Of a stretch of DNA of 64,000 bases, positions 6,781 through 57,255 are shown in pieces. Under the pieces are notes generated by a model that saw only the letters and a list, made by a program, of their open reading frames with translations, made no database searches and was not told where the DNA came from. This stretch comes from a virus. Numbering within the stretch: the stretch's first letter is position 1; every line of letters begins with the position of its first letter. The stretch lies in IMG/VR virus record IMGVR_UViG_3300025929_000015, positions 1 through 64,000 of that record; one strand, written 5' to 3'. The position numbers were made by a program, and so were the translations under genes.

Positions 6781-8024
6781 CGACGTTCACGGTCACCGCG
6801 ACCGACACGGCCGCGACGCTGGCCACGTTCGCGGCCCTGAAAGTCTTCGTCGTCACCTCCGTGTCCGCGGCCGGCGGCAACTCGGCCGGGTTCGCCGGGG
6901 GCTGGGGCGTGACCAACGACGTCATCACCCCCGCGCAGGCCGGCTCGCTGCTGCTGTTCGGCCTGGCCCAGACCGCCGGCACCTGGTCTGCCTACACCAC
7001 CGACGCGAACAACACGCTCGTCGACAACGCGCAGTACGCCGCGACCGGGTACGGGTACGCGGACGGGTACTACTCGGGGCCGGGCGGCAGCGGGCTGACC
7101 GTGGGCGCCAGCGGCCCTGCCGTCTGGACCGCAAGCGGGGTCTACGAGCTGGTCCCGCACAACGGCGCACCGGCGATCGACGGCAGCACCCCCGCGGTGG
7201 CGGTCACCGACGCGACCACCGCGCCGGTCACCGCGTCGTTCACCCCGCCGTCCGGATCGGTGCTGTGCGCCGTCCTGATGGCCAACAGCACCGGCACGCC
7301 CGTCATCGCGATGTCCGACACCAGCGGGCTCGGCCTGACCTGGACCCAGCAGCTGCAGTTCAGCGCGTCCTACGAGGGCACGGTCACTATCATGACCGCG
7401 ACCATGCCCGGCGGCGGCACCGCGATCGCGCTGGCCAGCGCCGGGACGGGCACTGAGGCGATCGCCGTCCCCGCGGTGAAGTCCCCGCCGCTGCAGGTTT
7501 CCGGGTTCGGCACGTTCCCCGCGGTGGGAGCCTCGGATACGATCAACTTCGTCCAGGTGTCGGTCACCGAGTACCAGTCCAGCGTGGCGATGCCGGCCTG
7601 CTCGTTCGAGCTGTGGGACAACGGCATCACCCAGATCGGCACCACCCAGACCGGGACCCGGTCGCAGACCCCGGGCAACGTCAGCACGGCCCAGTTCCGG
7701 CCGACCTACGCCCAGCTGGCCACCCTTCAGGTCCGGGTGTACGGCAACGCGCCCAGCGGGACCGGCGACACCGAGAACGTCGACGCGGTCGGGCTGGTCG
7801 TCGACTACACCCCGGCGTCGGGAACCTTCATCGCGCTGGCCGGGTCGGCGACGGGCACCGATACGCTCGGCGGGACCTCGTCCCTGCAGGTGCTGACCAC
7901 CAGCTTGCCCAACGCGATCGAGGGGACGGCCTACTCGGCCGGCCTGACCGCCACCGGCGGGACGCCGCCGTACACCTGGACCATCGTCTCCGGGGCGCTG
8001 CCGCCCTGGGCCACCCTGACCTGA
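6777..8024 (+). CDS. Multi-domain virion decoration/fiber protein with C-terminal Ig (He_PIG) fragment
   Basis: GTGA start; Thr/Ala-rich; ends TTSLPNA...GGTPPYTWTIVSGALPPW; shares a domain with the 29343 ORF. Confidence 0.6.
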   Translation: MTTFTVTATDTAATLATFAALKVFVVTSVSAAGGNSAGFAGGWGVTNDVITPAQAGSLLLFGLAQTAGTWSAYTTDANNTLVDNAQYAATGYGYADGYYSGPGGSGLTVGASGPAVWTASGVYELVPHNGAPAIDGSTPAVAVTDATTAPVTASFTPPSGSVLCAVLMANSTGTPVIAMSDTSGLGLTWTQQLQFSASYEGTVTIMTATMPGGGTAIALASAGTGTEAIAVPAVKSPPLQVSGFGTFPAVGASDTINFVQVSVTEYQSSVAMPACSFELWDNGITQIGTTQTGTRSQTPGNVSTAQFRPTYAQLATLQVRVYGNAPSGTGDTENVDAVGLVVDYTPASGTFIALAGSATGTDTLGGTSSLQVLTTSLPNAIEGTAYSAGLTATGGTPPYTWTIVSGALPPWATLT

Positions 8025-8470: not shown

Positions 8471-8794
8471 ATGCCGGTGAGAGTGCCGCTGCTGGACCAG
8501 GTGACGCGCTGGTCATGCCCGAACTGCGACGTGACCGACGTCACCCGGGGCGCCATGGACCCGGGCTCCTCCCGGTTCCACACCTGCGCCGGGCTGCACA
8601 TGCTCACCGCGCCGCTGGTCCGGGACGGCACCCGGTGCAAGGTCGAGGCCGAGGAGCGCGCCGACTACCTCGGCCGGGAGGTCCAGGACCACGGCGATGA
8701 CGGCAAGCCGTACATGGCGGTCCGCACCACCCGGGACGACGGGGACGACGTGGCCGTGAACGCGGGCCTGGCCCAGGCCCGGCTGGAAGGATGA
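8471..8794 (+). CDS. Small Cys/His metal-binding protein
   Basis: CPNC...HTC motif; RBS AAGGA. Confidence 0.55.
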   Translation: MPVRVPLLDQVTRWSCPNCDVTDVTRGAMDPGSSRFHTCAGLHMLTAPLVRDGTRCKVEAEERADYLGREVQDHGDDGKPYMAVRTTRDDGDDVAVNAGLAQARLEG

Positions 8795-9429: not shown

Positions 9430-9495
9430 CCTGCATAAACTTACTCTTTAGGGATGCGCTAACCTGTGGGTCCCGACCTCGGAAGGTAGGAAGAA

Positions 9496-10104
9496 ATGCC
9501 TGGCACCCTATGGTCGGCTCCGGTCCCGGCCCTGAGCAACAACAGCCTCGTCATCTCCCCGGCGACGGGGACGCTGACGGACATCTCCCCGGCGCAGGTG
9601 ATCATCAACCCGCCGCAGCTCAACGTCGGCACCCGGGTGCGGCTGTTCTCGTCCGGCTCCTACATCGCCACCACCACGGCGTCGTCGATCACGCTGGGGT
9701 TCTACATGACCTCAGCGGCCGTCGCGACGACCGCGAACCCGCTGGTGGCCAGTTCGGCGGTGCTCGGCGTCGGGCCGTCCACGGCGGTCGGCGCGGTCAC
9801 GGCAGAGTGGATGGCGCAGTATTTCGGCGTGATCACGAAGATCTCCTCCCCGGTGATCGGGACGTCCAACGCGACGATCGTGGGCCACGGCATGGTGTTC
9901 TGGCAGACGGCGGTCGGCGGTAACTTCACCGTCCTCGCGATCCCGCAGACAGTGGCGGCCGCCACTGTCATCCAGACCGGCACGACAGCGTTCGGCATGG
10001 TCACCAACATCGCCCAGCTGGTCTCCATCGGCGCGACCGTCGCGGTCAACACCGGGCTGACCTCGATCACGTGCGACGAGCTGACCTGCGAACTGCTCGG
10101 TTAG
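9496..10104 (+). CDS. Putative structural protein
   Basis: Beta-rich Thr/Val/Ala composition; operon context. Confidence 0.55.
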   Translation: MPGTLWSAPVPALSNNSLVISPATGTLTDISPAQVIINPPQLNVGTRVRLFSSGSYIATTTASSITLGFYMTSAAVATTANPLVASSAVLGVGPSTAVGAVTAEWMAQYFGVITKISSPVIGTSNATIVGHGMVFWQTAVGGNFTVLAIPQTVAAATVIQTGTTAFGMVTNIAQLVSIGATVAVNTGLTSITCDELTCELLG

Positions 10105-15196: not shown

Positions 15197-16135
15197 ATGA
15201 CCGCGGTGGTGTTCTACGACGGAGCAGCCGAGCAGGCGATCCTGAACGTCACGTTCACCGCGAACTTCGTCGAGACCGACCCCACTGCGGTGTCGTGCGT
15301 GGTCACCGACCCGTCCGGGACCGCGGTGACGCACACCTACGGCGGGGCGTCCCCCGCGGACATCGTGCGCCTGTCGACGGGGAACTTCCAGCTGGCCGTG
15401 TCCTGCTCCCCGGCCGTGGCGGGGGTGGACGGGCTGTGGGCCTTCACCTGGGTCGCGTCCGGCGCGGTCAGCGACATCCAGCCGGGCACCTGGCGGGTGC
15501 ACGCCACCAGCCAGTACACCTGGTACGTCGGCCCGGAGGAGCTGAAGGACCGGCTCGGCATCACCGACACCGCCGACGACTCGATCGTGGTGGACGTGTG
15601 CAGCGCCACCTCCCGCTGGATCGACGAGTTCTGCGGGCGGCACTTCTACCGGATCGCCGAGACCCGTACCTACCAGCCGGAGAACATCTGGCTGCTGGAC
15701 ACCGACGACCTGGTGTCGGTGACCGCGCTGAACATCGACCTGGACGGCGACGGGGTCTACGAGACCGCGTGGACGCAGAACACCGACTACATGCTCAAGA
15801 TCGGGGAGCGCCGGTTCAACCCCGGCGAGTACGGCGAGCCCCGCCCCTACACCCAGGTGCAGGTGCTGCACGGCGGCAGCACCTGGTTCCCGTTCACCTG
15901 GCCGTTCACCCACCTGGACCGGGTGCAGATCACCGGGGTGTTCGGCTGGCCGCGGGTCCCCCCGGCGGTGCACCAGGCCGCGCTGCTGATCGCCGCGGAC
16001 TGGGTGAAGCTGAAGGACGCGCCGTGGGGGGTCGCGGGGATCTCCGACGTGGGCATCGTGAAGACCAACCCGAATCCGTGGATCGCCGATCAGCTTCGCC
16101 CGTACGTCAGGGGCCGGGGCAAGGTCGGGGTGTGA
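15197..16135 (+). CDS. Head-tail adaptor (gp6/gp15-like) with N-terminal Ig-like extension
   Basis: YVGPEELKDRLGI...SRWIDEFCGRHF and VQITGVFGWPRVPPAVHQAAL motifs. Confidence 0.85.
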   Translation: MTAVVFYDGAAEQAILNVTFTANFVETDPTAVSCVVTDPSGTAVTHTYGGASPADIVRLSTGNFQLAVSCSPAVAGVDGLWAFTWVASGAVSDIQPGTWRVHATSQYTWYVGPEELKDRLGITDTADDSIVVDVCSATSRWIDEFCGRHFYRIAETRTYQPENIWLLDTDDLVSVTALNIDLDGDGVYETAWTQNTDYMLKIGERRFNPGEYGEPRPYTQVQVLHGGSTWFPFTWPFTHLDRVQITGVFGWPRVPPAVHQAALLIAADWVKLKDAPWGVAGISDVGIVKTNPNPWIADQLRPYVRGRGKVGV

Positions 16136-16136
16136 G

Positions 16137-16883
16137 ATGAGCCGGCAGGCCAAGCATGGCCGCACCCGGGCGCAGGCCGCCGCGGCGTCGGCGTTCGCGG
16201 CGGCCGGCCGGGCTTCGCAGGCCCGGAAGCGGGCGGCGGCGATCGCCAAGACCGGCAAGCCGCCCCCGGTGAGCAAGAGGCGGCACCAGGCGGCGCTGAA
16301 GTGGGCGGCGGCCGGACGCGCGGCGCAGGCCCGGAAGCGGGCCGGTCTCAAGCCGCTCCCGGTGCACGTGCGGGCGCTGGCCGGCGACCCGGCCGTCTCG
16401 ACCATGGGCGGTGCCGTATCATACATGAGCCCGGCCGCCGGCGAGGGTTCCGTGCCGTGTGATGCTTGGCCTGCCGTAGGTCCCATGAGCACGGCTACCT
16501 ACCTCATGATACTCGCTGAGGCGAACAGGGACAGCCCGTGCTGCGCGGCCACGGCCATCGCCACCCACCTGTACCTGTTCCGCGGGATCATGGCCACCGC
16601 GGACGACATCCTGGCACTGCACGCCGCGGGCGGCGGGGACGGCACGCACGGCGCGCTCCTCCCCGACCTGCTCGAGCTGGCCAGCGGTGGTTTCGCCGGC
16701 ACCCGGATCGCCAGCTTCTTCCCCGTGGAGGACGACACGCTGCCGGGGCTTGTCACGGGGCTGCGGCTACCCGGCGGCGCGCACGCGGTCCTGTCCCTGG
16801 GCGGGGCCGCGTGCGTGTCCTGGGGCCAGGTCACGCCGGTCACCGGGCGTGACGGAGAGGCGTGGTGGGCCGAATGGGAATGA
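16137..16883 (+). CDS. Basic N-terminus plus degenerate papain/C39-like domain; linker carries two antisense stem-loop units
   Basis: CCAATAIA...HAVL...SWG motifs. The linker at 16390-16520 has atypical codon usage. Confidence 0.5.
   Translation: MSRQAKHGRTRAQAAAASAFAAAGRASQARKRAAAIAKTGKPPPVSKRRHQAALKWAAAGRAAQARKRAGLKPLPVHVRALAGDPAVSTMGGAVSYMSPAAGEGSVPCDAWPAVGPMSTATYLMILAEANRDSPCCAATAIATHLYLFRGIMATADDILALHAAGGGDGTHGALLPDLLELASGGFAGTRIASFFPVEDDTLPGLVTGLRLPGGAHAVLSLGGAACVSWGQVTPVTGRDGEAWWAEWE
16381..16505 (-). ncRNA. Two dual-spacer stem-loop units (F1, F2), candidate guide-like RNAs
   Basis: On + strand: ccgt-ctcgacca-tgg-gcggtg-ccgt-atcataca-tga and ccgt-gtgatgct-tgg-cctg-ccgt-aggtccca-tga, each closed by an inverted repeat. 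Confidence 0.75.
16506..16534 (-). promoter_or_regulatory. Putative promoter for units F1/F2
   Basis: Minus strand CTGTCC-N17-TATCAT, directly upstream of the units. Confidence 0.55.
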
Positions 16884-20799: not shown

Positions 20800-21570
20800 G
20801 TGAGTCGTATTCACGGTCTACACCAGCAGGCCGCCTGAGAGAGCGATCTTTCAGAGTAAACCGCGAGAATTGCTGGGACACCCGAGTCACCTGGCCAGGC
20901 CACAACGTGGGGCGAAAGCCCGGGCGTGACGGCTTGAGAACTGGCCAGCAGAGGGGCAATCAGCAGCCGAGCCCGCCTGGGTCCGCCCGACGGGAAGGTT
21001 CAGAGACTATGTACGTGGCACCCCACGCGGGTGAAGATATAGTCCGGTCTGCATGGAGACATGCAGAGGCAGGCGGAAACGACCTGCCCGCCCGTTTTCA
21101 GGTAGCGGAAACGGGAAGTAACAAATACGCGCAACGGAATCGCCTACGTCGCCGTCAACGGCCCAGGTGGGGGCGCCGCCACCGGCTCCGCCGTCGCCTC
21201 GCCGATGGCTTTTCTTACTGACTGGAGTATTAATTTCACCGTCGCTAAGGTGGATGTCACCGCGATGGGGGACTCGAACCTGATCTACGTGGCCGGCCTG
21301 CCGGACGCTTCGGGGGACTTCACCGGGTTCTACGACACCGCGACCGCGCAGACCTACGTGGCCGCGACGGACGGCCTGAGCCGCAACTTCTACCTGTACC
21401 CGTCCACGATCGGGGCCCAGGGTACCGCTCCTGGTCAGTACTTCTTCGGAACGATCATCCCTGACTACTCCCTGACGGGTGGTGTCGGGGCCGCGGTCAC
21501 CATGAAGTCAACCTGGAACGCTGCCACGATCATCTCGCGCTACCCGGCGTCTGGTATCGCGGGTACGTAA
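20800..21570 (+). CDS. Major tail tube protein, spliced: join(20800..20817,21130..21570)
   Basis: RBS AAGGAG. Spliced frame reads MSRIHG|RNGIAYV...WSINFTVAKVDVTAMGD...YVAGLPDASGDFTGFYD. Lies upstream of the chaperone and tape measure. Confidence 0.88.
20818..21129 (+). ncRNA. Group I self-splicing intron, 312 nt, no ORF
   Basis: P AATTGCTGGGA (20868), Q AATCAGCAG (20958), R GTTCAGAGACTAT (20998), S AAGATATAGTCC (21034); P7 GACTAT/ATAGTC; P1 cggu|cu pairs with aggccg with U.G at the splice site; terminal G. Confidence 0.93.
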
Positions 21571-21576
21571 CCTGGC

Positions 21577-21715
21577 GGCAGCACCCCGGCCGTATCAATT
21601 CTGGGTTTCCCGTGACCAGTCTGGGCCGGGGTGCTGCCCCACGATCCGCTGTGCTGGCAGCACCCCGGCCGTTTCTCTCATGGAGGCCGTTCCCCTCTGG
21701 GCCAGGGTGCTGCCA
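21577..21715 (-). ncRNA. Two dual-spacer stem-loop units (A1, A2)
   Basis: A1: ggcagcaccccgg-ccgt-atcaattc-tgg-gtttc-ccgt-gaccagtc-tgg-gccggggtgctgcc. A2: ...ccgt-ttctctca-tgg-agg-ccgt-tcccctc-tgg-gccagggtgctgcca (one 7-nt segment). Confidence 0.8.
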
Positions 21716-29343: not shown

Positions 29344-32300
29344 TGGTCCAGCTGGTCAACGACTTCGCCGAGGGCACCAACGGCACCGCCCTGACGACCG
29401 GCAACACGGCCGGGTCCGGGGAGAACGCCTTCGACGTGGTCTCGGCCGGGGCCGGCACCACGCTGGCCTTCAGCAATACGGCCGTCGCGCACGGCACGCT
29501 GGCCGCCCAGGTCGCCACCGGCGGCACGGCGGCGGGCGCCTATATGGGCTGGTCTACCTCGCTCGGCGCGCAGGCCGTCCATTACGGGCGGATCTACGTC
29601 AACGTGTCGGGGACGCCCGCGGCCAGCGACGCGTTCGTCCAGTTCCAGTCCGGGTCGGGCGTCTTCGCCGGCGGGCTGCAGCTGACCACCGGCCGCCAGG
29701 TCGCCATCCAGCTGACCAGCCTCGCTATCCAGGCCACGATGTCCACGGTGCTGGCGGTCGGGACCTGGTACCGGATCGAGTGGAAGCTGGTGTCGTCGGC
29801 GTCCGGCGCCGGGCAGGTCACCGTCTCCCTCTACTCCGGTGATGCGGCGACCGCGACCGAGACCTACACCAGCGCGGCGACCCTGACGATAGGCGGGGCG
29901 GCCACCGACGCGGTGCTGGTCGGCTGGACCGGGGCGCACGCCGGCCAGCCCGCGGTCTACGTCGACGACGTGGCCCTGTCCACCACCGGGCCCCTGGGGC
30001 CCTGGTCCGGGCCGTCGGTGACCTCCCCGGTTATCGAGGTCTCCTCGTTCGGCACGTTCCCCGGGGTCAATCCCGGCGACATGATCAGCACCGTCACCGT
30101 GGCGGTCACCGAGCACCAGTCCAGCACCACCCAGCCGCCGTGCACGTTCGAGCTGTGGGACTACTCAGGCGGAACCCCGGCGCAGATCGGCTCGACCCAG
30201 AACGGAACCGCGTCTACCAGCCCGTCGAATGTGTCCAGCGCCGTGTTCACCGGGGTCACCTACCCGATGCTGGCGACCTTGCGGGTCCGGGTCTACGGCC
30301 ATTCCACCGCAACAGGCCAGTCCGAGTCGGTGGACAGCGTGTCGCTGCTGGTCAGCGCGGTGCCGCCGGAGACCTCCCCGTTCCTGGAGGTCTCCGCGTT
30401 CGGCACGTTCGCCGGGGTCCATCCCGGCGACACGATCAACTCGGTGACCGTCACGGTGACCGAGCACCAGTCCAGCATCGCCCAGCCGCCGTGCACGTTC
30501 GAGCTGTGGGATTACAGCGGCACCCCGGCCCAGATCGGCACCACCCAGACCGGCACCGCGTCCACCAGTGCCGGCAATGCCAGCACCGCGACCTTCACCG
30601 GGGTTACCTACCCCATGCTGGCCACGCTGCGGGTGCGGGTGTACGGCCACGGCTCCGCGGCGGGCCAGGTCGAGTCGGTGGACAGCGTGTCGCTGTCGGT
30701 CAGCGCCACGCCGGGGACGGGAGGGACCGCCACCCCGGCCACGCTGGCAGTCACCACCGCCCGGCCGGCCCCGGTCGTCACCGGCGGGAACGTCACCGCC
30801 GCCCCGGCCACGCTGGCGGTCACCACTGCCGAGCCGGTCCCGGCCGTCACCGGCGGCAACGTCGTCGTCACCCCGGCGACGCTGGCGGTCACCACCGCCG
30901 TGCCGCGCCCGGTCGTGACGGTGCCCGTCTTCGTGCCGACGTACTTCCCCGCGGTCGTGCTGGGCATCAAGGTGGAACTGCAGATCGCCGGGAACTGGAC
31001 CGACATCACCCGGTGGGCCTACCAGCGCAACCCGCTGCAGATCACCGGGATGGGCCGGGCGGACTGGACGTCCACCATGCAGGCGTCCCAGCTGACCATG
31101 ACGCTGAACAACCGGGACGGCCGGTTCACCCCGAAGAACAGCGCCGGGGCGTACTGGCCGAACATCACCCGGAACGTCCCGGTCCGGGTGTCGGTGACCA
31201 CCAAGTCCAGCACCGGGGTCACCTACAGCGGGTTCCGGTTCTTCGGGGAGGTCACCGAGTGGCCGCCGCGCTGGGACCCGTCGGGGCACGACGTCACCGT
31301 CGAGGTGGTGGCGTCGGGGATCTGGCGGCGGCTGTCCCAGCTGCAGACCACGCTGGGCTCGGCGTTCCGCCGGTACAACGTGAACACCGCGGCCGCCACC
31401 GGGATGCAGGCGTACTGGCCGTGCGAGGACGGGACCGGGTCGGGCCAGCTGGTCCCGTACGGGCCGCCGGCCGCGAACGCGGTCCAGCAGTTCGTCACCG
31501 GCCAGGCGGGCCTGTCGCTGACGGCCAACTCCGATTTCAGCGGCAGCGACGCGATCTGCGTGCTGAACGCCGCGGCCATCACCGCGACCGTCCCGGCCGG
31601 GGGGGTCGCGTCGAACAACGTCACCCGGTTCGTCATCTCGGTGCCCGCGGCCGGCGACTCGGCGTCCGGGACCACGAACTGGAACCTGATCGAGATCGAC
31701 TCAGGCGGCACGGTCGCGAAATTCGAGGTGTACCTGAACGCTACCGGGACGCTGCTGATGCAGCTGCGCAATTCCGCCGGGACCGTGATCGCGTCCGGGG
31801 TGACGACCACGAACGTCAAGGGCGTCCCGTACCTGGTCTCATGCGAGCTGACGCCCAGCGGCGGCAGCGTGGCGTTCGCGCTGCGGATCATCAAGCAGAA
31901 CGCCGGCGGGATCACCGAGAGCATGCTCGGCACGGTCGGCGGGCTGGTGGGCGCGGTCAGCAAGGTGGTGGTCTCCCGGGCGTTCGCGCTGAACGACACC
32001 GCGTTCGGGCACCTGTCGGTGTCCTACGGCGCGCCGACCTCGCTGGTCCAGGCAGCCGGGGCGCTGGCCGGCTACATCGGGGAGACGGCGATGGACCGGT
32101 TCACCCGGCTGTGCGGCGAGATGGGCATCGCCACCGAGACGATCGGGACGGCCGCCTCGACCGCGCCGCTGGGGCCGCAGGTGGACGACACCCTGGCGAA
32201 CGTGCTGCAGTCCATCGAGGACACCGACTGCGGGCTGCTGTATGAGTCGCGCAGCCAGTTCGGGCTGGGCTACCGGTCGAACGCGTCGATGGCGAACCAG

Positions 32301-40366: not shown

Positions 40367-40426
40367 GGGGCCGGCCGCCGGCACTATGGGCCGGTTCCCC
40401 GGCCGTAGCCATTCTGGGCCGGCCTC
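40367..40426 (-). ncRNA. Dual-spacer stem-loop unit D
   Basis: ggggccgg-ccgc-cggcacta-tgg-gccggttccccgg-ccgt-agccattc-tgg-gccggcctc. Confidence 0.75.
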
Positions 40427-41958: not shown

Positions 41959-42480
41959 CTAGGGGATGCGGACCAAGGTGGCGGTGCCGCAGCCGCCGCG
42001 GACCGGCGCGGTGATCGCGGTGACCGAACCGGTCAGGCTGCTGTACCGCACGCAGATGGTGAAGCTGCGCACCGGGCCGGGCGGGCCGGTGCGGCCGGGT
42101 GCCCCGGCCGGGCCGGGCAGCCCGCGCGCGACCAGCCCGCCGTTCGCGGCGGCCAGCAGGCCCGCGACCGCGCCGGCCAGCAGCAGTGTCACCACGACCA
42201 GCGCGGTCACCGCGACCGTGGCGTAAGAGTTCCGCGGTGGCAGCCGGTAGCGCGGCTCGTCGTCGTCGTCATAGGCGGCGGGCAGCAGGGCGTGCAGCCC
42301 GGACGGGGGAGTGGTGTCCATGGCGACCGTGTTCTCGGCAGGGGGGTCTTTCTTCATCCGGTCCAGGATGCGGACCACGGTGGCCTGGCTGGTCTGGACT
42401 TCCCCGGCGATCCGCCGGGTGGACCAGCCCAAGCGATGGTAAGACCAGACCAGGCCGTCAATGGGTGTCGGTGATGTCAC
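41959..42480 (-). CDS. HTH plus TM plus short collagen-like protein
   Basis: GWSTRRIA...SQATVVRIL; TM helix; GPAGAPGRTGPPGP. Confidence 0.55.
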   Translation of the reverse strand: MTSPTPIDGLVWSYHRLGWSTRRIAGEVQTSQATVVRILDRMKKDPPAENTVAMDTTPPSGLHALLPAAYDDDDEPRYRLPPRNSYATVAVTALVVVTLLLAGAVAGLLAAANGGLVARGLPGPAGAPGRTGPPGPVRSFTICVRYSSLTGSVTAITAPVRGGCGTATLVRIP

Positions 42481-42482
42481 GT

Positions 42483-42968
42483 TCAGCCTCCGGGCTGATC
42501 GTCCCCCGCGAGGCCGGGCGCGCCGCTAGCTCCATGGTGTCCGTCATCGCCTTGGGCGCGCCCGGCCCCGGTATCGGCGTAGAGGTCCTCCACGCCGATC
42601 ATGGCCCGGCCGCGCCGGGTCAGCTCCGTATTGAGGGTATCGATGAGGATCCGCAAGGTGGAGATCTTGGGGCGGAGCCGGTCCCCGTTCTCGATCTTGG
42701 CGATGGCGTCGCGGGAGATCCCGACGTGCCGGGGGAGCGCCACGCCCGCGTCGTGCAGCGTGGCGGTCAGCTGGGCTTCGCTCATCGTGGCGGAGCCGCC
42801 GATGTCGTTGGCGGCGGCGAGCTGGCGCAGCTCGGTGAGGCGGGTGAGCGCGGACAGGTCGATGCGCTCGAGCAGGGCCGCCTCACGCAGCGCCTTCAGC
42901 TTGTGCCGGTCGATGGCGATGCCGATGCCGGGCCGCCGGACGGGGGGTGCGGGGGGGGAGCGCTTCAT
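42483..42968 (-). CDS. XRE-type HTH regulator with an insertion
   Basis: KLKALRE...(insert)...VGISRDAIAKIENG..RPKISTL. Confidence 0.65.
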   Translation of the reverse strand: MKRSPPAPPVRRPGIGIAIDRHKLKALREAALLERIDLSALTRLTELRQLAAANDIGGSATMSEAQLTATLHDAGVALPRHVGISRDAIAKIENGDRLRPKISTLRILIDTLNTELTRRGRAMIGVEDLYADTGAGRAQGDDGHHGASGAPGLAGDDQPGG

Positions 42969-43337: not shown

Positions 43338-43742
43338 CCGCGCCGAAGACGCCGCCCCCGCCCAGCATGCCCACGGAATCTCCCAAAGTTCCTACGGCGG
43401 GGGCGGGCGGGCCGCGGCTGCCCACGTTCGGCAAGCTGCCCCGCCCGTTCGAGCCGAACCTGACCGCGGCGCACGCCCCGGCGCACTGCCTGTGCACCTG
43501 GACCTGGACCCCGGCGCTCGGCGGGCCGGACCGGCCGTTCGCGATGAAGTTCAGGAACAGGGCCTGCCCGGTCCGGCACTAGCTGGGGAACCGGCGGGTG
43601 ACGTGTCCTTCCCCGCCGCATTCGGTGCACCGGGCCTTGACCCCCCATTTGGTGGGATGCGGCACCCACCCTCTATCGCACCGGGCCGGGCAGCGGATCA
43701 CCCGGGTCACGCCCTTTTTCGCCCTGGCCATCCCTCAGTGTA

Positions 43743-48285: not shown

Positions 48286-49863
48286 ACCCCCCCGGACCCA
48301 TAGACAGGACCGATATGTTGGGCACCCCGCCGGAACGCGACGCCGCGACCTTGCGCGCCGCCGCGTGGATCCTGCACCGCCGGGCGGGGTGCCGACCCCG
48401 GCTGGGCCTGCGCGTCGTCATCACGGTGCTGCGCCAGTCCGCGCGGCGGATCGAAGCCGAGAATAAGTCCCCGGACCGATTGAAGAGATTGATCAGTTGA
48501 CCGTTCAATCACCGGCCCGGGCGGCCTACGCCGCGGCCCGCACGCGCGCCCGGCGGTCCGCCGACCCCCAGCGGATCACCGGCGGGCCGGCCGCGCTGGC
48601 CGCGGTCGCGGCGATGACACGGCGCTGCCGCTGCGGCCACATGGTCCTGCTGCACGAGATCACCCCGCGCGGGGTCCGCAGCTGGTGCAGCTACGCCAGC
48701 CAGGCCGGGCGCTGCCCCTGTACCGCCTGCGAGATCGCGGCGTACAGTGAGGCGGTGCCCAAGAAGCCGCGCGACCTGGAGCTGCAGAAGAAGTCCTGCC
48801 CGACCTGCAAGGGAAGCGGCCTGTACCGGGGCGGTGTGTGCCCGGACTGCGAGGGGGACGGGGACCGGAAGTAACGGTGTCCGTGATACGGTAACGGACA
48901 TGAGCTGCATCCATGCACGCGGCGGCTGGCTGCTGTACTCCGGCCAGCTCGGCGTGATCGCCGCGGACGTCCTGGACGCGGACATGTCCATGCGCTCCCG
49001 TAGCCTGGACGTGACCAGCATCGTGAGCCCGGTGCGCCAGCTGGTCTACGGCCCGCCCGACATCACCTTCACCGCCCAGCTAGGGCGGAAAATCGACTGG
49101 AACCAGGCAGCCGCAGCCGGGGAGCCCCCGGACCTGAACGCGCTCCTGGCGCTGGCCCGCCGCCACCCGGACGAATACCAGCGCTGGCACGAGGCCGAGA
49201 CGGTCCTGAAAGCGCTCGGCGGATGACCCCGGAATCGCCCTGGTGGGAGACCGGCCCGGCCGAGATCACCCCTACCGCCGACGGGACCACCCTGGACTGC
49301 GGCGGCGACCGCCAGACCTGGGGCTGCGGCTGCCCGGCCTGCCTGCCCCGGCAGCACCCGCTGGACCTGATGGCCCGGGTCAGCGCCGCCCAGCTGGCCC
49401 AGTGGGCGCAAGCCCGGGCGAAACTGAGCGCCCAGCCGCGCACCCGCGGATCGTGCTACTGCGGCCAGCCCGGGCGGCTGTACGCCGGCGGGTTCCGCTG
49501 CGACACCCACGTCCGCCAGGCCCCCGGGCCGCTGTCAGCAGCCACCCGGGACGCCATCGGCAGCTACGTCCGGGAGCACGGGACCACACCGTGGCCGCGG
49601 AAACAGAAAAAGGACTCATGAATGCAATAGCGGAATGGCTCGCCACCGAGGAAGGACTGCACTGGGCACTGCACCACTTCTACGACGCCACCGAGTTCCA
49701 CCCCCTCATCGAGATCATCGACGAAGACTGCTACACCGGCGACCACCCGGACCTCCCCGCCCAGACCATTTTCGACCACCTCCGCGAACGGCCCCCGTGG
49801 CAGGACCTGACCTGGACTCCTGATGAGCCGCCGTGATAGGTTATACTGAGTGTGTTACTACGC

Positions 49864-49938
49864 CGCGGGGTCGCCTAGCTCGGTATGGCATTGGGCTCAT
49901 AACCCAAAATAACGCGGGTTCGAATCCCGCCCCCGCTT
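49864..49938 (+). tRNA. tRNA-Met(CAT), initiator type, no encoded CCA
   Basis: Acceptor CGCGGGG/CCCCGCT with unpaired C1; anticodon arm TTGGG-CTCATAA-CCCAA (3 G-C pairs); T arm GCGGG-TTCGAAT-CCCGC; TATACT upstream. Confidence 0.85.
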
Positions 49939-49940
49939 CT

Positions 49941-50324
49941 ATGATGAGCGTTGAGTGGCACCGCGAATACCAGCGCAACCGCCGTATCGAGCGGCTGGCA
50001 CTAGCGCGCGAGCGCCTCGGCGGTCGGTGCGTGCGGTGCGGTGCGACCGAGGACCTGGATTTCGACCACATCGATGCGGGGACCAAGGTACGGAACATCT
50101 CCGAGGCAACCAACTGGGCACTGGCCAGGTTCTTGGAAGAAGTAGACAAATGCCAGCTCCTGTGCCGACACCATCACCACGAGAAGTCAGCCGAGGCCGG
50201 GGATGTCAGGATCGTAGAGCACGGCGGTGGCGTCAAAGGCAAGCACAACTGCCCGTGCACTCTATGTAAGACTGCACGTCGGGAGAATATGCGGCAGCGC
50301 CGGGCGCGGGCGGCCTCGGTCTAG
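49941..50324 (+). CDS. HNH endonuclease abutting the tRNA
   Basis: LGGRCVRCG...LDFDHID...KCQLLCRHHH. Confidence 0.85.
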   Translation: MMSVEWHREYQRNRRIERLALARERLGGRCVRCGATEDLDFDHIDAGTKVRNISEATNWALARFLEEVDKCQLLCRHHHHEKSAEAGDVRIVEHGGGVKGKHNCPCTLCKTARRENMRQRRARAASV

Positions 50325-52123: not shown

Positions 52124-52307
52124 GGGGCACTCCGGCCGCGCTCCCCATGGGCAGCGCCGTGAGATCCATGAGCCGGAGTGCCCCACGCGGCACCCCGTCC
52201 GTGTGATCTATGGGCCGGGCCGTAGCGTGCATGGGACGGGGACCCGCAGGCGGCACCCCGGCCGTACCCGCACTGGATACCGTATCTCAGATGGGCCGGG
52301 GTGCCGC
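52123..52307 (-). ncRNA. Array of three dual-spacer stem-loop units (B1-B3)
   Basis: Units at 52123-52185, 52187-52247 and 52250-52307. Segment pairs: gctcccca/gagatcca, gtgatcta/agcgtgca, acccgcac/atctcaga. Compensatory stem changes. Confidence 0.85.
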
Positions 52308-52814: not shown

Positions 52815-53984
52815 TCACGTTTCCTCATCAGCATCCTGCCCGGGTTCCTCGATGGTTTTCAGGTAGCGGTCCAGCGCCTGGCGGCGGGCCCCGGAGGAGG
52901 CGTGCCCGCCTGCCACCCGGGTCACCGTATCGTGGATGATGAACACCTCACCTTTGGACAGCTCGTTCATGCCGGACAGCTCGCGGTGGGCCAGCACGGC
53001 GCACAACCGGACCTGGGCGGGGCCGCTGACCCCGCAGCGGCGCAGCAGTTCGTGCAGCTCGGGCAGCCCCGGCGGCTCAGCGCGGACCGTCCCGGCCGTT
53101 TCACCTGTGGTCGCCGTTTCGACGTTGGGCCGGGACGACCCGCTGACCTCGTAGTCCGCCGAAGCCGCCGTCTCTGATGTGGGTTCCGTAGTCGTCATGG
53201 GCGGCCCCGGCGGGACCGCCGCCCCCGCCGTAGCTGGTTTGGGTTCCGTCGCCTCTGTGGGCGGGGGCGGATGCTCGGTGCCGGCGGCGTGCTGGCGGTC
53301 CAGCTGGGCCAGCTTGTCGCGCACGTCCTGCACGCCCGGCGCGGGCTGGGGGGCGGGGACGACCTCGGCCAGGACGGTGCTGCCGTCGTTGCCGTCCCCG
53401 ATCCCGGCCAGGTCAAATCCAAAGATCAACTCAGGGCAGCCGCGGGCGGCGCCGCGGGCGACCGCCCGCCATTGGAGCATGTCTTTCCGGTAGCTCTCCC
53501 AGGGCAGGGGCTGGCCGCTGCTGGACCGGGCGACGAGCTTGCCGTCGTGCCTCTTGACCAGGCCCGCGGCCTGCGCGTCCTGCACGGTAAACCGGCCGGT
53601 GTATTTAATCTTGAATTCCTCGTCTTTGCGAGTGATCACAAACTCGCAGGAATCCTCGGACTCGACGAAGTCGTACCTATGGCCGGCGGCGCGGATCCGG
53701 GCCAGCAGCAGCGCGCCGCGCAGGCCCGGCTGGCCAGACGGCAGCACGTAGATGCCCCGGATCGCCTGGATCCAGCTCAAGCCCAGCTCCCGGCCCAGCA
53801 GCATGGTAATGAGGCAGTTCTGCGGCGAGCCGCGGAGCGCCTGCGGGACCATGGACGACTGGGCCAGCATGGTGGCCAGCCGGAACGCCTGGTCCAGGTC
53901 GGACAGCGGGTCGTTCAGATCGACGGCAATCCGCTGCTGCTCCGTCCGGGCGAGCGCCGTGCCCGGCTCGTCAGGCTGCGTCAT
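52815..53984 (-). CDS. RecT-like single-strand annealing protein
   Basis: LAQSSMVP...G.ELGL, AQAAGL and W..Y..DML.WRA...AAR..CPE motifs; upstream of the exonuclease. Confidence 0.8.
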   Translation of the reverse strand: MTQPDEPGTALARTEQQRIAVDLNDPLSDLDQAFRLATMLAQSSMVPQALRGSPQNCLITMLLGRELGLSWIQAIRGIYVLPSGQPGLRGALLLARIRAAGHRYDFVESEDSCEFVITRKDEEFKIKYTGRFTVQDAQAAGLVKRHDGKLVARSSSGQPLPWESYRKDMLQWRAVARGAARGCPELIFGFDLAGIGDGNDGSTVLAEVVPAPQPAPGVQDVRDKLAQLDRQHAAGTEHPPPPTEATEPKPATAGAAVPPGPPMTTTEPTSETAASADYEVSGSSRPNVETATTGETAGTVRAEPPGLPELHELLRRCGVSGPAQVRLCAVLAHRELSGMNELSKGEVFIIHDTVTRVAGGHASSGARRQALDRYLKTIEEPGQDADEET

Positions 53985-54004: not shown

Positions 54005-54055
54005 GGAGGTGCCGTAGGTAGCATGGGTGAAACCGCTACGGCCCTGGGCACCTCC
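54005..54055 (-). ncRNA. Dual-spacer stem-loop unit E
   Basis: ggaggtg-ccgt-aggtagca-tgg-gtgaaa-ccgc-tacggccc-tgg-gcacctcc. Confidence 0.8.
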
Positions 54056-54985: not shown

Positions 54986-55153
54986 GCGGGCCCAAGAGGA
55001 AAACGGCCCACCGGGCCCAAAGAGCCAACGGCCCGCCGCCCACAACGGGTACGGAACCAGCCAGGGTGATAACGGCGGCGGGTACAGTAGCGGGATGACA
55101 GGCAGCCCCGGCCCAGGGACCAACCCCACAAAGATGACGGCCGGGGCTGCCTG
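54986..55153 (+). ncRNA. Three dual-spacer stem-loop units (C1, C2, degenerate C3)
   Basis: cca-agaggaaa-acgg...cca-aagagcca-acgg; cca-caacgggt-acgg-aaccag-cca-gggtgata-acgg; caggcagccccggc-cca-gggaccaa-cc-cca-caaagatg-acgg-ccggggctgcctg. Confidence 0.75.
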
Positions 55154-55870
55154 ATGCGTGACCTGGCGGAGGCGTGCGAGGAGCTGCTCACCCAGCTCCA
55201 GGTGTTCGACCTCGGCGCGGCTGACGACGACCGGGCCGACGCGGGCCTGGTCACGGTAACGTGCCTGATCGCCGAGGCGGACACCGACCCGGGGCTGCGC
55301 CGCTCCGGGCTGCTGGAATCCCGTCCGCCGTGGAACGCCAACGTGGCCGGCGCCTACCTGTCCGCCCACCAGCTGGTGCGCCGCCTGGAGGCGTCGCTGC
55401 GGCTGGCGGTGGCCGGGCACCCGGGCCGGGCGCGCGGCGGGTCGGATGCGAATACCGCCGAGGCCATCCGGGCGATCGCCCGGATGGCCACCGCGGCCAG
55501 CGTGATCCCCACCGCCGAGCCGGTCTCCCGGTCCGACCCGGACGGGCGCAAGCTGACCGTGGCGGAACTGGCCGCGATCGTGCTGGACCGCGCGATCCGC
55601 GTCATCGGCCAGCTGCCCGCCATCGACGAGTTCCCCAAGTGGGAGAAGATCCGGGCCGGCCCGGACGGGCTGCCGCCGCGCTGCCCGAACTGCGGTACGT
55701 TCTCGCTGCGGGTCGCGGTGCAGTCCGGGGTGGTGGTGTGCGTGCTGCCGTCCTGCGCCGACCTGGACGGGAACAGTCCCCCGCAGGCGCACCTGGACGT
55801 CTCGCGGCTGGACGGCAGCCCGGCGCTGGTGTGGCGGGACGGCACCGTGCAGTGCCCGCCGGCCGCGTTA
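55154..55870 (+). CDS. Actinophage Zn-ribbon protein (238 aa); apparent end at TTA 55868-55870
   Basis: SRPPWN and RCPNCGTFSLR...VVC..PSC motifs. After TTA the frame is antisense to other genes. Confidence 0.65.
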
Positions 55871-56032
55871 CGGCAGGTCCCGGAGCGGGATCCAGCCGTC
55901 TGGGTAGTCACCCCGGCTGATGGCCTGGGCCAGGCAGATGGCCGCGAACGGCCTGTACCCGCGCGCCCGGCCCGTGACTACCGCCAGGGCCTCGTCCGGA
56001 TCTTCGTCCAGTTCCAGGAGAGGGTCTTTCAT
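55868..56032 (-). CDS. 54-aa hypothetical protein
   Basis: MKDPLLELDEDP...RDLP*; last ORF of the minus-strand run. Confidence 0.5.
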   Translation of the reverse strand: MKDPLLELDEDPDEALAVVTGRARGYRPFAAICLAQAISRGDYPDGWIPLRDLP

Positions 56033-57255
56033 GAGTTCTCGAATTCGATGTCGTCGATCATGTTCTGCCTTTCCCTTTCGTCACGGATTACCTCCCCAGA
56101 GTTTCCTGCTGAGCACAGGAACGCATTCCTTGCAGACCTGGAACTGGCACCACCATTTCAATTTCTTCCCGCAGTTCAGGCATCGCCCGGTCATTTCCTG
56201 CGCCGCCGTGCGGCGATACCCCTGGCGATCATCCGTAGCTTCTCCTCGAAGCAGGGTGTACACAGGCCATGATTGCGGTTGGCCACCTGAGGCGTGATCT
56301 CGTTCTCGCATCCTGCGGTCTTGCACTGCACCGTGCCCTTGCCCATGATTTCTCCTAATTTCCTTCCCGCTGCCGCCGTATCTCGGCGAGACCTTCCGGG
56401 GTGAGCAGCCAGCCGACGCACCGGCCCGTGCGGTTGCTGAGGTACCAGTCGCGGTGGCATCTGCCGCAGTGCTGGGCGGTAAGCCACCGCCCTTCATGTG
56501 CGGCATACGTGAGCGTGAAGAGGTCGAGAGGGCAGAGCCCGACCTGGAGGGCGCCGCCCCACAAGATCCAGTTGGCCTCACCGAGCGTCATGTACTCCGT
56601 CATCTGACCTCTTTTCCTTTCATGCGTCACCCGGCCCCCGAGGCCCTGCTCAAGCCCACCTGCGAACGTGGTTCCCGGCTGCCCGGAACCGTAGGTTTGA
56701 GCAGGACCTCCGCGGTCAGCTACTTCTTCTTGGCCTTGGTCTTGCGGTACCTGTTCAGGTCCCTATTCGCCTGGACCAGCGCGGCGGTAAGCCCGAAGTG
56801 GTCCGGATCTCCCCGCCTGAGCTGTCTCAGCGCATCTGCTATGTCGTTGCAGATGTCAATGAGCCGCTGCTCTTCCTGGTCTGCGGCCATCGTTACGGTT
56901 CGATCGGGCCGCAGAACGGCTGGGTCATGTGCGGGGCGATCAGCCGGCAGGCCAGCACGTGGTGGCCGGGCCGGCAGTGCGGCCGGAGCGGGTTCGCACG
57001 GTAGGCGGCGACTGCCCAGCGGATGATCGTGGTCATGGTTTTCCTTCTTCCTTCTCGGTGAATGACCGGGAATACTGGTCGTCGGGAGTGTAGGACGGGT
57101 AGTATTTCGCGTCGATCCAGGGATGCGTGCCCGGGTCGGGCACGAAGACGACCAGGCCGAACCACGGGGTCCGCAGGTACAGTGAGCAGTTCCCGTACTC
57201 GTCCCCGCCGTGCCCGGCGTACCAGCCGGTGGACGGGCCCTCCAGCAGGAGCCGC

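What the first reader, a model, noticed from the sequence alone, without database searches (positions are those of the whole stretch)
16381..16534. Guide-like units and their promoter embedded antisense inside an intact ORF
Seen: units F1/F2 and a CTGTCC-N17-TATCAT promoter occupy the linker of the 248-aa ORF without breaking its frame, and codon usage there is atypical. Inference: dual-coding DNA, or an insertion showing that the units are mobile or are acquired.
Basis: partly seen in the sequence, partly recalled or inferred. Interest (0 to 1): 0.8.

Follow-up and report, generated by a model that had tools for sequence, protein, structure and literature searches.

The report
TIGR guide-RNA units inside a gene
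Two small guide-RNA genes of the recently described TIGR-Tas system, apparently with their own promoter, lie on the opposite strand inside the flexible linker of an intact phage protein gene, so the same DNA seems to encode a protein, two RNAs and a promoter.

Summary
F1 (16450-16494) and F2 (16383-16439), both on the minus strand, fit the published grammar of stem-loop TIGR guide RNAs: stem, box C YCA, 9-nt spacer, box D CG, loop, CCA, 9 nt, CG, stem. The 99-kb virus record has 19 such units against about 1 expected by chance. The 248-aa ORF is real, with over 100 homologues. The units sit in its predicted disordered linker, where GC3 falls and rare codons cluster.

Two diverged relatives (L006, L028) carry a unit at the same linker position and strand. 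Boxes and outer stem are kept and the spacers differ. Both also keep ATG-ATA, which reads TATCAT (a -10 box) on the minus strand, although ATA makes up 0.8% of Ile codons. About 100 homologues lack the footprint, and F1 is an extra unit in this lineage.

Relative G001 encodes a Tas-fold protein flanked by dense arrays of the same units. No tas gene lies in this record, which is 83% complete.

Transcription, processing and targets are untested. TIGR-Tas and tigRNAs inside tas genes are already published. Antisense units with their own promoter inside unrelated genes are a new variant. This scan noted dispersed TIGR hairpins in another phage before (e1-5941204).

The parts
16137..16883 (+). 248-aa ORF that hosts the units. 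It has a basic helical N-terminal region with two AAAGRAxQA-type repeats, a variable linker, and a C-terminal domain with invariant Cys136 and His216.
   Evidence: ORF list. 108 homologues. Alignment A1. AF2 model with mean pLDDT 83. Only weak Foldseek hits (E >= 0.2), mostly papain-fold peptidases. The gene follows the head-tail adaptor gene 15197-16135 (phrog_442).
16368..16478 (+). Linker of the protein (residues 78-114), predicted disordered. It is absent or short in most homologues.
   Evidence: pLDDT below 50 for residues 78-114. Gap columns in most rows of A1. GC3 dip. Rare-codon excess.
16383..16439 (-). Unit F2. Outer stem arms are 16439-16429 and 16393-16383. Box C is TCA, spacer A is TGTATGATA, box D is CG, loop, box C is CCA, spacer B is TGGTCGAGA, box D is CG. 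It has an orthologue in L006 and in L028.
   Evidence: stem 13 with 1 mismatch; 11-bp stem, 97% of cells paired in three orthologues, 2 compensatory pairs.
16450..16494 (-). Unit F1. It has a 6-bp outer stem (16494-16489 with 16455-16450), TCA, spacer A TGGGACCTA, CG, loop, CCA, spacer B AGCATCACA, CG. It is present only in the window lineage.
   Evidence: It is absent (an alignment gap) in L006 and L028.
16506..16511 (-). -10-like hexamer TATCAT. It is the reverse complement of codons ATG-ATA (Met124-Ile125) and lies 11 nt upstream of the F1 stem.
   Evidence: ATG-ATA is kept in the window, L006 and L028, although ATA is 0.8% of Ile codons. A TACAAT lies at the same distance from box C of the unit at 54047.
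16529..16534 (-). -35-like hexamer CTGTCC, a weak match to TTGACA (3 of 6), 17 nt from the -10.
   Evidence: Sequence. Not called by the consensus scan. One low-depth metagenome contig reads TTGTCC (16534 G>A on the + strand).
21590..21624 (-). Single unit of the same family with a 14-15-bp stem. It is intergenic in the late operon and antisense to it.
40375..40417 (-). Single unit of the same family.
42523..42555 (-). Single unit with a 15-bp stem, just upstream of an HTH-like gene (41959-42480, minus strand).
43362..43397 (+). Single unit with a 10-bp stem.
52136..52294 (-). Three-unit array with a 60-63 nt period, upstream of the PD-(D/E)XK/Cas4-like exonuclease gene.
53096..53260 (-). Three-unit array embedded in frame and in sense orientation in the Pro/Thr-rich linker of the RecT-like ORF 52815-53984 (minus strand). 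This is a second case of units inside a coding sequence in the same phage.
   Evidence: phrog_4171 covers residues 21-380.
54012..54047 (-). Single unit in the leader of the RecT-like gene, preceded by TACAAT.
54992..55075 (+). Plus-strand cluster of four half-sites (two or three overlapping units).

Best explanation
F1 and F2 are a two-unit mini-array of stem-loop TIGR guide-RNA (tigRNA) genes. They are written on the minus strand inside the disordered interdomain linker of a translated phage gene on the plus strand.

Shown:
- The units have the published tigRNA grammar (box C YCA, 9-nt spacer, box D CG, twice, closed by a palindromic stem). They belong to a family of about 16 units dispersed over the phage.
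- The host ORF is a real single protein, and its frame is kept through the units.
- A unit orthologous to F2 sits at the same position and strand in two relatives whose protein is 50-60% identical. Boxes and stem are conserved and the spacers have diverged.
- F1 is an added unit in this lineage.
- Most homologues have no unit.
- A related phage encodes a nuclease-less Tas-fold protein surrounded by arrays of the same units.

Inferred:
- A promoter whose -10 (TATCAT) is spelled by the rare-codon pair ATG-ATA at the start of the C-terminal domain drives a short antisense transcript of about 120 nt.
- That transcript folds into two hairpins and is trimmed to two tigRNAs.
- Because the lineage's Tas lacks a nuclease domain, the likely outcome is binding or repression rather than cleavage.
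- The tas gene of this phage would lie in the unsampled 17% of the genome, next to where relative G001 has it.

The linker tolerates the units because in this frame the reverse-complemented boxes read as Ala-Val and Met/Leu-Gly/Ser.
For: Grammar and enrichment. [quoted passage not shown] The CCA box C and dual-spacer logic: (PMC12045711).

Real ORF and variable linker. Disordered linker. Codon anomaly.

Orthologous units in L006 (10289-10252, minus strand) and L028 (230-193, minus strand), inside the homologous linker. Stem kept, with 2 compensatory pairs. Three-way DNA identity of the F2 region is 0.5-0.7, as high as the folded domain, and 0 across F1.

Conservation of ATG-ATA (TATCAT on the minus strand) against 0.8% ATA usage. 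Comparable TACAAT before unit 54047.

Tas in relative G001: AF2 model with pLDDT 88.9. The top 10 PDB matches are all TasH/TasR, followed by IS110 bridge-RNA recombinases. A weak collinear sequence match to 9mty. phrog_4285 'transposase'. Arrays abut the gene. Other homologues of this Tas also have units beside them.

Relatives whose linker has no unit have neither Tas nor an excess of units. G001 28.2-38.8 kb is syntenic with the window 0.7-18.5 kb, so the tas side lies beyond the record's left end.
Against: No tas gene is in the 99,376-bp record by Pfam Nop, the Tas profile A3, HHalign against 97 ORFs, or phrog_4285. The link to Tas therefore rests on a relative.

The -35 is poor and the generic promoter scan calls nothing. 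F1 has only a 6-bp stem and a TCA box C. By TIGRFinder's stated rules, small arrays with imperfect boxes are discarded.

The fold energy of the antisense RNA is no better than that of shuffles (z = -0.43). Covariation rests on three sequences and is not significant (111 of 500 shuffles).

No target was found in the phage or in about 0.69 Mb of related loci.

Confidence: 0.68

Rival explanations
1. The units are genuine TIGR-type sequences but are orphans or relics. They were inserted or duplicated into a permissive linker and are no longer used as guides, or are used only when a Tas protein is supplied by another element.
For: No tas is found in the record. F1 has a short stem and a variant box C. 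No targets were found.
Against: Boxes, stem and the -10 hexamer are kept in three lineages whose protein is only 50-60% identical. A relic in a disordered linker should have decayed. The record is only 83% complete, and the missing side is where G001 has tas.
Confidence: 0.17
2. The hairpins act as structural or regulatory elements independent of Tas. Candidates are transcription pause or termination sites, mRNA-stability or processing sites in the late operon, or binding sites for a DNA-binding protein that recognises CCA-N9-CGG.
For: The outer stems are palindromic and so form on both strands. Several units lie at gene boundaries. Units in the late operon are all antisense to it.
Against: A plain hairpin does not need two fixed 9-nt variable segments bracketed by invariant CCA and CG. 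In G001 the same half-sites form long tandem arrays around a Tas-fold gene. Phages without Tas have no excess of units.
Confidence: 0.1
3. The pattern is a by-product of a short peptide repeat (AVxxM-G/S) under protein-level selection, or a chance match, and there is no RNA element.
For: Three of the four half-sites translate to AVSTM, AVSYM and AVGPM in the same frame. Close homologues show similar peptides.
Against: The chance expectation is about 1 unit per 99 kb against 19 seen, with two adjacent at the array period. The residues between the boxes vary while the boxes and flanking stem are kept, with compensatory changes that include a rare GGT codon paired with an Ala-to-Thr change. The fourth half-site is in another frame (PCDAW). 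The region is predicted disordered. Rare codons would not be favoured by protein selection.
Confidence: 0.03
4. The ORF is really two genes, a basic N-terminal protein and a Cys/His protein, and the units lie in an intergenic spacer that happens to be open.
For: GC3 in the linker is no higher than at the other codon positions. An open run of 50 codons has roughly a 0.3 probability by chance at this composition (my estimate).
Against: Short homologues join the two domains directly in one protein. The window, L006 and L028 keep the frame through linkers of different length. No start codon with a ribosome-binding site is evident for a separate C-terminal gene.
Confidence: 0.02

Closest known systems
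Stem-loop TIGR arrays / tigRNAs of TIGR-Tas systems (Faure et al. 2025, PMC12045711; Xu et al. 2026, bioRxiv 10.64898/2026.09.09.750476)
   Same: Each unit has two 9-nt spacers, each bracketed by box C (CCA) and box D (CG), with a variable loop between them and a variable palindromic stem outside. Units stand singly or in short tandem arrays. The setting is a phage. A relative has a Tas-fold protein among arrays of the same units.
   Different: No tas gene lies in the 99-kb record. The units are scattered over about 40 kb in eight places rather than beside tas. TCA is a frequent box C variant. The last spacer base is nearly always A, so box D reads ACGG. The CUU motif reported at stem bases in other clades is not seen.
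Intragenic tigRNAs inside the tas coding sequence, for example Bifidobacterium longum TasA (Xu et al. 2026)
   Same: The units lie inside a coding sequence without breaking the frame, in a region predicted to be disordered.
   Different: Here the host genes are not tas. They are a virion-module Cys/His protein and a RecT-like annealing protein. F1 and F2 are antisense to the host gene and appear to have their own promoter spelled by codons. The paper leaves open whether intragenic units have embedded promoters.
Archaeal box C/D sRNAs and IS110 bridge RNAs
   Same: Both have a dual-guide architecture with short conserved boxes around two guide segments, closed by a terminal stem. The partner protein has a Nop/IS110-type fold.
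   Different: There are no k-turn boxes (RUGAUGA/CUGA), no L7Ae or fibrillarin context and no DEDD recombinase domain. The guides are 9 nt, not 10-12 nt RNA-targeting guides.
Orphan TIGR hairpins in a temperate phage late operon
   Same: Dispersed dual-spacer hairpins lie in a phage late operon, with no tas gene in the record.
   Different: That note describes four hairpins in another genome and I did not examine it. Here the units are inside coding sequences and a relative with tas is identified.

Membership tests
Stem-loop TIGR array (tigRNA genes) | Box C (CCA or CGA/CTA/CAA), 9-nt spacer, box D (CG or TG), twice per unit, with the two halves at most 15 nt apart | tested here: met
   F1 reads TCA-N9-CG-5 nt-CCA-N9-CG. 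F2 reads TCA-N9-CG-7 nt-CCA-N9-CG. The first box C of each is the single-base variant TCA. TCA is common in the tas-adjacent arrays of relative G001. Definition.
Stem-loop TIGR array (tigRNA genes) | Palindromic flanks that form a stem of at least 5 bp around the spacer pair, variable in sequence between units | tested here: met
   F1 has 6 bp. F2 has 11-13 bp with one G.G mismatch. The F2 stem is kept in three orthologues with 2 compensatory pairs. Stems differ among the 16 units.
Stem-loop TIGR array (tigRNA genes) | Enough units or perfect motifs to pass TIGRFinder (arrays of three or fewer units are kept only if all boxes are perfect; box variants need a stem of at least 8 bp) | tested here: inconclusive
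   By the rules quoted, the two-unit array with TCA boxes would probably be dropped, and F1's 6-bp stem is below the variant threshold. The genome-wide excess (19 against 0.98) and the 60-nt array period support membership all the same.
Stem-loop TIGR array (tigRNA genes) | A tas (Nop-domain) gene in the same locus or genome | tested here: not met
   None is found in the 99,376-bp record. The record is 83% complete. The criterion is met in relative G001, where L040:7556-8476 gives top PDB fold matches to TasH/TasR.
Stem-loop TIGR array (tigRNA genes) | Transcription and processing into unit-sized RNAs bound by Tas | not testable with these tools
   No RNA run holds the stretch. Only a conserved -10-like hexamer is available as evidence.
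Stem-loop TIGR array (tigRNA genes) | Conserved CUU at the base of the stem (the processing site reported for some clades) | tested here: not met
   No CTT recurs at the stem bases of the units (flanks). In the reported systems CUU is tied to box C of other clades, so this probably does not apply to a CCA-box clade.
Intragenic tigRNA (Xu et al. 2026) | Located inside the tas coding sequence | tested here: not met
   The host ORF is a basic/papain-fold-like protein of the virion module, not a Tas.
Intragenic tigRNA (Xu et al. 2026) | Reading frame preserved, and the unit maps to a disordered segment between folded elements | tested here: met
   The frame is open in the window, L006 and L028. 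Residues 78-114 have pLDDT below 50.
TasA-type Tas protein (for the G001 ORF L040:7556-8476) | Nop-type fold (coiled coil plus C-terminal domain) without a RuvC or HNH domain, adjacent to TIGR arrays | tested here: met
   Foldseek top 10 hits are TasH/TasR (E 7e-5 to 4e-3, probability 1.0), followed by IS110 recombinases. The protein is 307 aa with no nuclease family in Pfam. Arrays lie on both sides. Pfam Nop itself does not score.

The most novel reading that the evidence does not exclude
Disordered linkers of ordinary phage genes serve as landing pads where new tigRNA units are added. If so, this gene family preserves a natural series: no unit in about 100 homologues, one unit in L006 and L028, two units here. 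That series would record how TIGR units are gained, which is an open question for these systems. The antisense units, with a promoter spelled by rare codons, would form a three-layer overlapping code (protein, guide RNA, promoter). Their expression might also be timed against, or interfere with, late-operon transcription.
Probability: 0.2. Interest if true: 0.8.

Novelty: new variant of a known kind. Interest (0 to 1): 0.58.

Why it matters
TIGR-Tas systems were described only in 2025-2026. Their natural targets, their biological role in phages and the way new dual-spacer units are acquired are all still open.

Published surveys look within about 10 kb of tas genes. They would therefore miss guide units scattered through a phage genome or hidden inside other genes.

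This locus shows three things:
- Such units can live antisense inside a translated gene.
- They can stay at the same site across diverged phages while their spacers change.
- Their number at one site can grow.

That gives a concrete, comparable case for studying unit gain and embedded promoters. It is also a caution for annotation: rare-codon patches in the linkers of high-GC phage genes may be RNA genes. The finding does not reveal a new kind of system.

Tried and rejected
I could not get DNA for P0002, P0003, P0009, P0010 or P0012. Only their peptide footprints are known.

Expression. No RNA holder was listed for the stretch, so expression could not be examined. Laying four DNA metagenome runs gave only near-identical contigs and three single-contig variants, too little for a polymorphism pattern.

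Completing the genome. Exact-match scans of IMG/VR with both ends of the record found no overlapping contig.

Target search. With the geometry I derived from the published cut rule (spacer A followed by the reverse complement of spacer B, gap 0-2), the phage gave only the units themselves. About 0.69 Mb of related loci gave one 2-mismatch hit, which is about the chance expectation. I did not scan the big collections, because an 18-mer is expected there by chance many times over.

Other searches that found nothing:
- tblastn of the 248-aa protein against deposited phages: no match.
- Pfam and PHROGs on the 248-aa protein: no family.
- ORF 55154-56272, which lies downstream of the plus-strand cluster and which I first suspected as Tas: no family and no PDB match.
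- Rfam: no family at the units.

Rejected or uninformative:
- A regex match at 17993-17961 has no stem and is probably chance.
- F1 is not a recent duplicate of F2. Outside the motifs their alignment is at chance level.
- tblastx between G001 and the record is noisy at this GC content. Only the structural block and one small gene near 98 kb are credible.
Full report
**What is at 16381-16534**

The window is the first 64 kb of a 99,376-bp IMG/VR virus record. It is linear, estimated 83% complete, and has 70% G+C. The finding lies in the late, plus-strand structural operon. ORF 16137-16883 (248 aa) directly follows the head-tail adaptor gene 15197-16135 (phrog_442, E 6e-27).

Read on the minus strand, the segment contains two units of one design.
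- F1: a 6-bp stem, TCA, 9 nt, CG, a 5-nt loop, CCA, 9 nt, CG, then the return arm of the stem (16494-16450).
- F2: the same design with a 7-nt loop and an 11-13-bp stem with one G.G mismatch (16439-16383).
- The units are 60 nt apart.
- Eleven nucleotides upstream of the F1 stem lies TATCAT (16511-16506). Seventeen nucleotides further upstream lies CTGTCC (16534-16529).

**Is it more than chance?**

- That regex matches 17 times in the window. Markov-2 simulations of the window expect 0.54, with a maximum of 3.
- When a stem of at least 6 bp (one mismatch allowed) must abut the boxes, the whole record has 19 units against 0.98 expected.
- The convincing units are at 16.4, 21.6, 40.4, 42.5, 43.4, 52.1-52.3 (three), 53.1-53.3 (three), 54.0 and 55.0 kb.
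- The arrays at 52 and 53 kb have periods of 60-72 nt, like F1/F2.

A second unit 60 nt from the first, on the same strand, is therefore not a coincidence.

**The host ORF is a real, single protein**

More than 100 homologues exist in metagenomes. Their alignment shows three parts:
- a basic N-terminal region with two AAAGRAxQA-type repeats;
- a linker of very variable length;
- a C-terminal domain with invariant Cys136 and His216.

The shortest homologues (194-199 aa) join the two domains directly.

An AlphaFold2 model (mean pLDDT 83) is confident for both domains and drops below pLDDT 50 for residues 78-114, the linker. F2 encodes residues 86-98 and F1 encodes residues 107-118.

The C-terminal domain gives only weak Foldseek matches (E at least 0.2), but most of them are papain-fold cysteine peptidases. 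I treat 'peptidase-like' as a lead only.

**Codon usage**

GC3 is 0.92-1.0 through most of the gene and 0.50-0.75 across 16389-16514. No alternative frame shows coding-type GC3 there. Rare or A/T-ending codons are 13 of 43 in codons 85-127 against 15 of 206 elsewhere (Fisher p = 1.2e-4).

**What the units are**

They fit the published definition of stem-loop TIGR guide RNAs point for point.
- In TIGR-Tas systems each guide carries two 9-nt spacers, each preceded by box C (CCA) and followed by box D (PMC12045711).
- In the stem-loop class the unit is closed by a variable palindromic stem.
- Re-read in that way, the units here are stem-GC|CCA-N9-CG|GC-stem.

The same preprint reports that stem-loop tigRNAs can lie inside the tas coding sequence without breaking the frame, in disordered regions. 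It leaves open whether they have embedded promoters.

**The protein partner**

No Tas gene is detectable in the 99-kb record by four tests:
- Pfam Nop;
- a profile of the lineage's Tas family;
- HHalign of that profile against 97 ORFs;
- phrog_4285.

A related phage contig does have one. This is G001, 38,850 bp, and it contains locus L006. It matches the full-unit pattern 23 times against 1 for the reversed control. It has long tandem arrays of YCA-N9-CGG half-sites with a period of about 24 nt at 7.2-10.0 kb.

Between these arrays lies a 307-aa ORF (L040:7556-8476).
- With an alignment of 36 homologues it folds confidently (pLDDT 88.9).
- Its ten best PDB matches are all TasH or TasR structures, followed by IS110 bridge-RNA recombinases.
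- A profile search gives a weak but collinear sequence match to the TasR entry 9mty.
- It has no nuclease family, so it is TasA-like.
- Other homologues of this protein in IMG/VR also have units immediately beside the gene.

G001 28.2-38.8 kb is syntenic with the window 0.7-18.5 kb, and G001 0.3-0.5 kb resembles the record near 98 kb. The tas region of G001 therefore corresponds to the gap between the two ends of this incomplete record. That is an inference. I could not extend the record.

**Comparative test of the linker**

Two homologous genes could be read as DNA.
- L006 (55% protein identity by blastp) has a unit at 10289-10252 on the minus strand, with a 15-bp stem.
- L028 (60% identity) has one at 230-193 on the minus strand, with a 12-bp stem.
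- Both lie in the same place as F2, directly after the conserved RALAGD, and on the antisense strand.

All boxes are intact. The encoded residues between them differ: AVSTMGGAVSYMS here, AVRRMGREAVSRLG in L006, and AVSRLGSGAVSSLG in L028. Spacers differ at 3 to 7 of 9 positions.

The 11-bp outer stem pairs in 97% of cells, with two compensatory pairs. One of them couples a rare GGT codon to an Ala-to-Thr change. With three sequences this has no statistical weight (111 of 500 shuffles reach it).

Three-way DNA identity over F2 is 0.5-0.7, as high as in the folded domain. The F1 segment is simply absent from L006 and L028. L003, a 53% homologue with a short linker, has no unit.

Among 108 homologous proteins, only the closest six show the linker peptide footprint of a half-site (AVxx[ML][GS]). 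Two further rows match only inside the C-terminal domain.

It is not seen. The reverse is seen.

In four more distant phage genomes whose homologue has no linker unit, two of them at least 97% complete, there is no Tas homologue and the unit pattern is at control level.

**The promoter**

The generic consensus scan does not call it, because the -35 matches 3 of 6 positions. The -10 has better support.
- All three unit-bearing genes use ATG-ATA.
- ATA supplies only 0.8% of Ile codons in the long genes of this phage (5 of 641).
- The unit-less L003 has neither the residues nor the hexamer.
- The one other unit in the record that needs its own promoter, at 54047 at the head of the RecT operon, has TACAAT at the same distance from box C: 22 against 23 nt.

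Conservation of Met-Ile could be protein-driven. The choice of ATA is hard to explain that way.

**How it most likely works**

Shown: the design of the units, their family, their conserved position and strand inside a translated linker, the gain of F1, and a Tas-fold protein with arrays of the same units in a relative.

Inferred:
- Transcription starts about 7 nt after TATCAT, near 16499, and runs against the late operon.
- The RNA folds into two hairpins. The minimum-free-energy fold shows both outer stems, but its energy is not better than that of shuffles (z = -0.43).
- The RNA is trimmed to two tigRNAs, which load a Tas dimer.
- From the published C-5 cut rule and the 8-nt 3' overhangs, I derive the target as spacer A followed by the reverse complement of spacer B, with a gap of 0-2 bp.
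- Because the lineage's Tas has no nuclease domain, RNA-guided binding or repression, as shown for TasA by Xu et al., is the likely action.

No such target occurs in the phage or in the related loci I hold.

Coexistence with the protein is easy to see. In this frame the reverse complement of box D plus the first stem base reads as part of GCC-GTN (Ala-Val). The reverse complement of box C falls across NTG-G/A (Met/Leu then Gly/Ser). The TGA that arises from the TCA box is out of frame.

**A second case in the same phage**

The array at 53096-53260 lies in frame and in sense orientation inside the Pro/Thr-rich linker of a RecT-like annealing protein (52815-53984, minus strand). phrog_4171 covers residues 21-380. 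GC3 dips across that array too. Embedding in linkers is thus a habit of this element, not a single accident.

**Comparison with what is known, and novelty**

The kind of system is known, and so is the embedding of tigRNAs in tas genes.

New here:
- the host genes are unrelated to tas and tens of kilobases from any possible tas;
- F1 and F2 are antisense to their host gene, with a promoter written in its codons;
- the site is conserved across diverged phages while the spacers change;
- the series of zero, one and two units at one site.

This scan has already noted dispersed TIGR-type hairpins without tas in another phage (e1-5941204). I did not check that note.

I rate this a new variant of a known kind, of moderate interest. 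The main weaknesses are the missing tas gene in this record and the complete lack of expression data.

Noticed in passing
window 52815-53984 (-), array 53096-53260: A three-unit tigRNA-type array lies in frame and in sense orientation inside the Pro/Thr-rich linker of a RecT-like ssDNA-annealing protein (phrog_4171, residues 21-380). GC3 dips across the array.
   Followed up: partly
L040:7556-8476 (+) in relative G001 (IMGVR_UViG_3300036783_000169), arrays at 7182-7600, 8497-8709, 9490-9591, 9875-10037: A TasA-like protein (its top PDB fold matches are all TasH/TasR) is surrounded by compact arrays. In these arrays every connector starts and ends with GC, and box C alternates between CCA and TCA. 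[quoted passage not shown]
   Followed up: partly
window 20807-21066 (+): Group I intron (Rfam RF00028, 65.4 bits, E 2.5e-14) inside the structural operon. I did not check the exon junctions.
   Followed up: no
window 21590-21624 (-); G001 30185-30222 (-) and 30825-30862 (-): All units located in the late structural operons of both phages are antisense to that operon. Units in the early or minus-strand region are co-oriented with their neighbours. The reason is unknown.
   Followed up: no
window 49864-49939 (+): A tRNA-Met (CAT) gene, found by both ARAGORN and Rfam, lies directly before an HNH-type ORF (49833-50324 overlaps it).
   Followed up: no
L039:15270-15345 (record 99,270-99,345): The right end of the record carries several close copies of CCATGGTC(A/G)AC in a low-GC stretch. 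They are not of the tigRNA grammar and remain unexplained.
   Followed up: no
window 16523 and 16534: One soil-metagenome contig (run X8, depth 3) differs by G>A at both places. The second change turns the -35-like CTGTCC into TTGTCC on the minus strand and Ser into Asn in the protein. This is single-contig evidence only.
   Followed up: no
G008:C1:41888-42676 (+) (record of L016): A more distant phage carries a distant homologue of the Tas family (E 1e-13), but units of the CCA-N9-CGG grammar are at background level there. It may use other box motifs.
   Followed up: no
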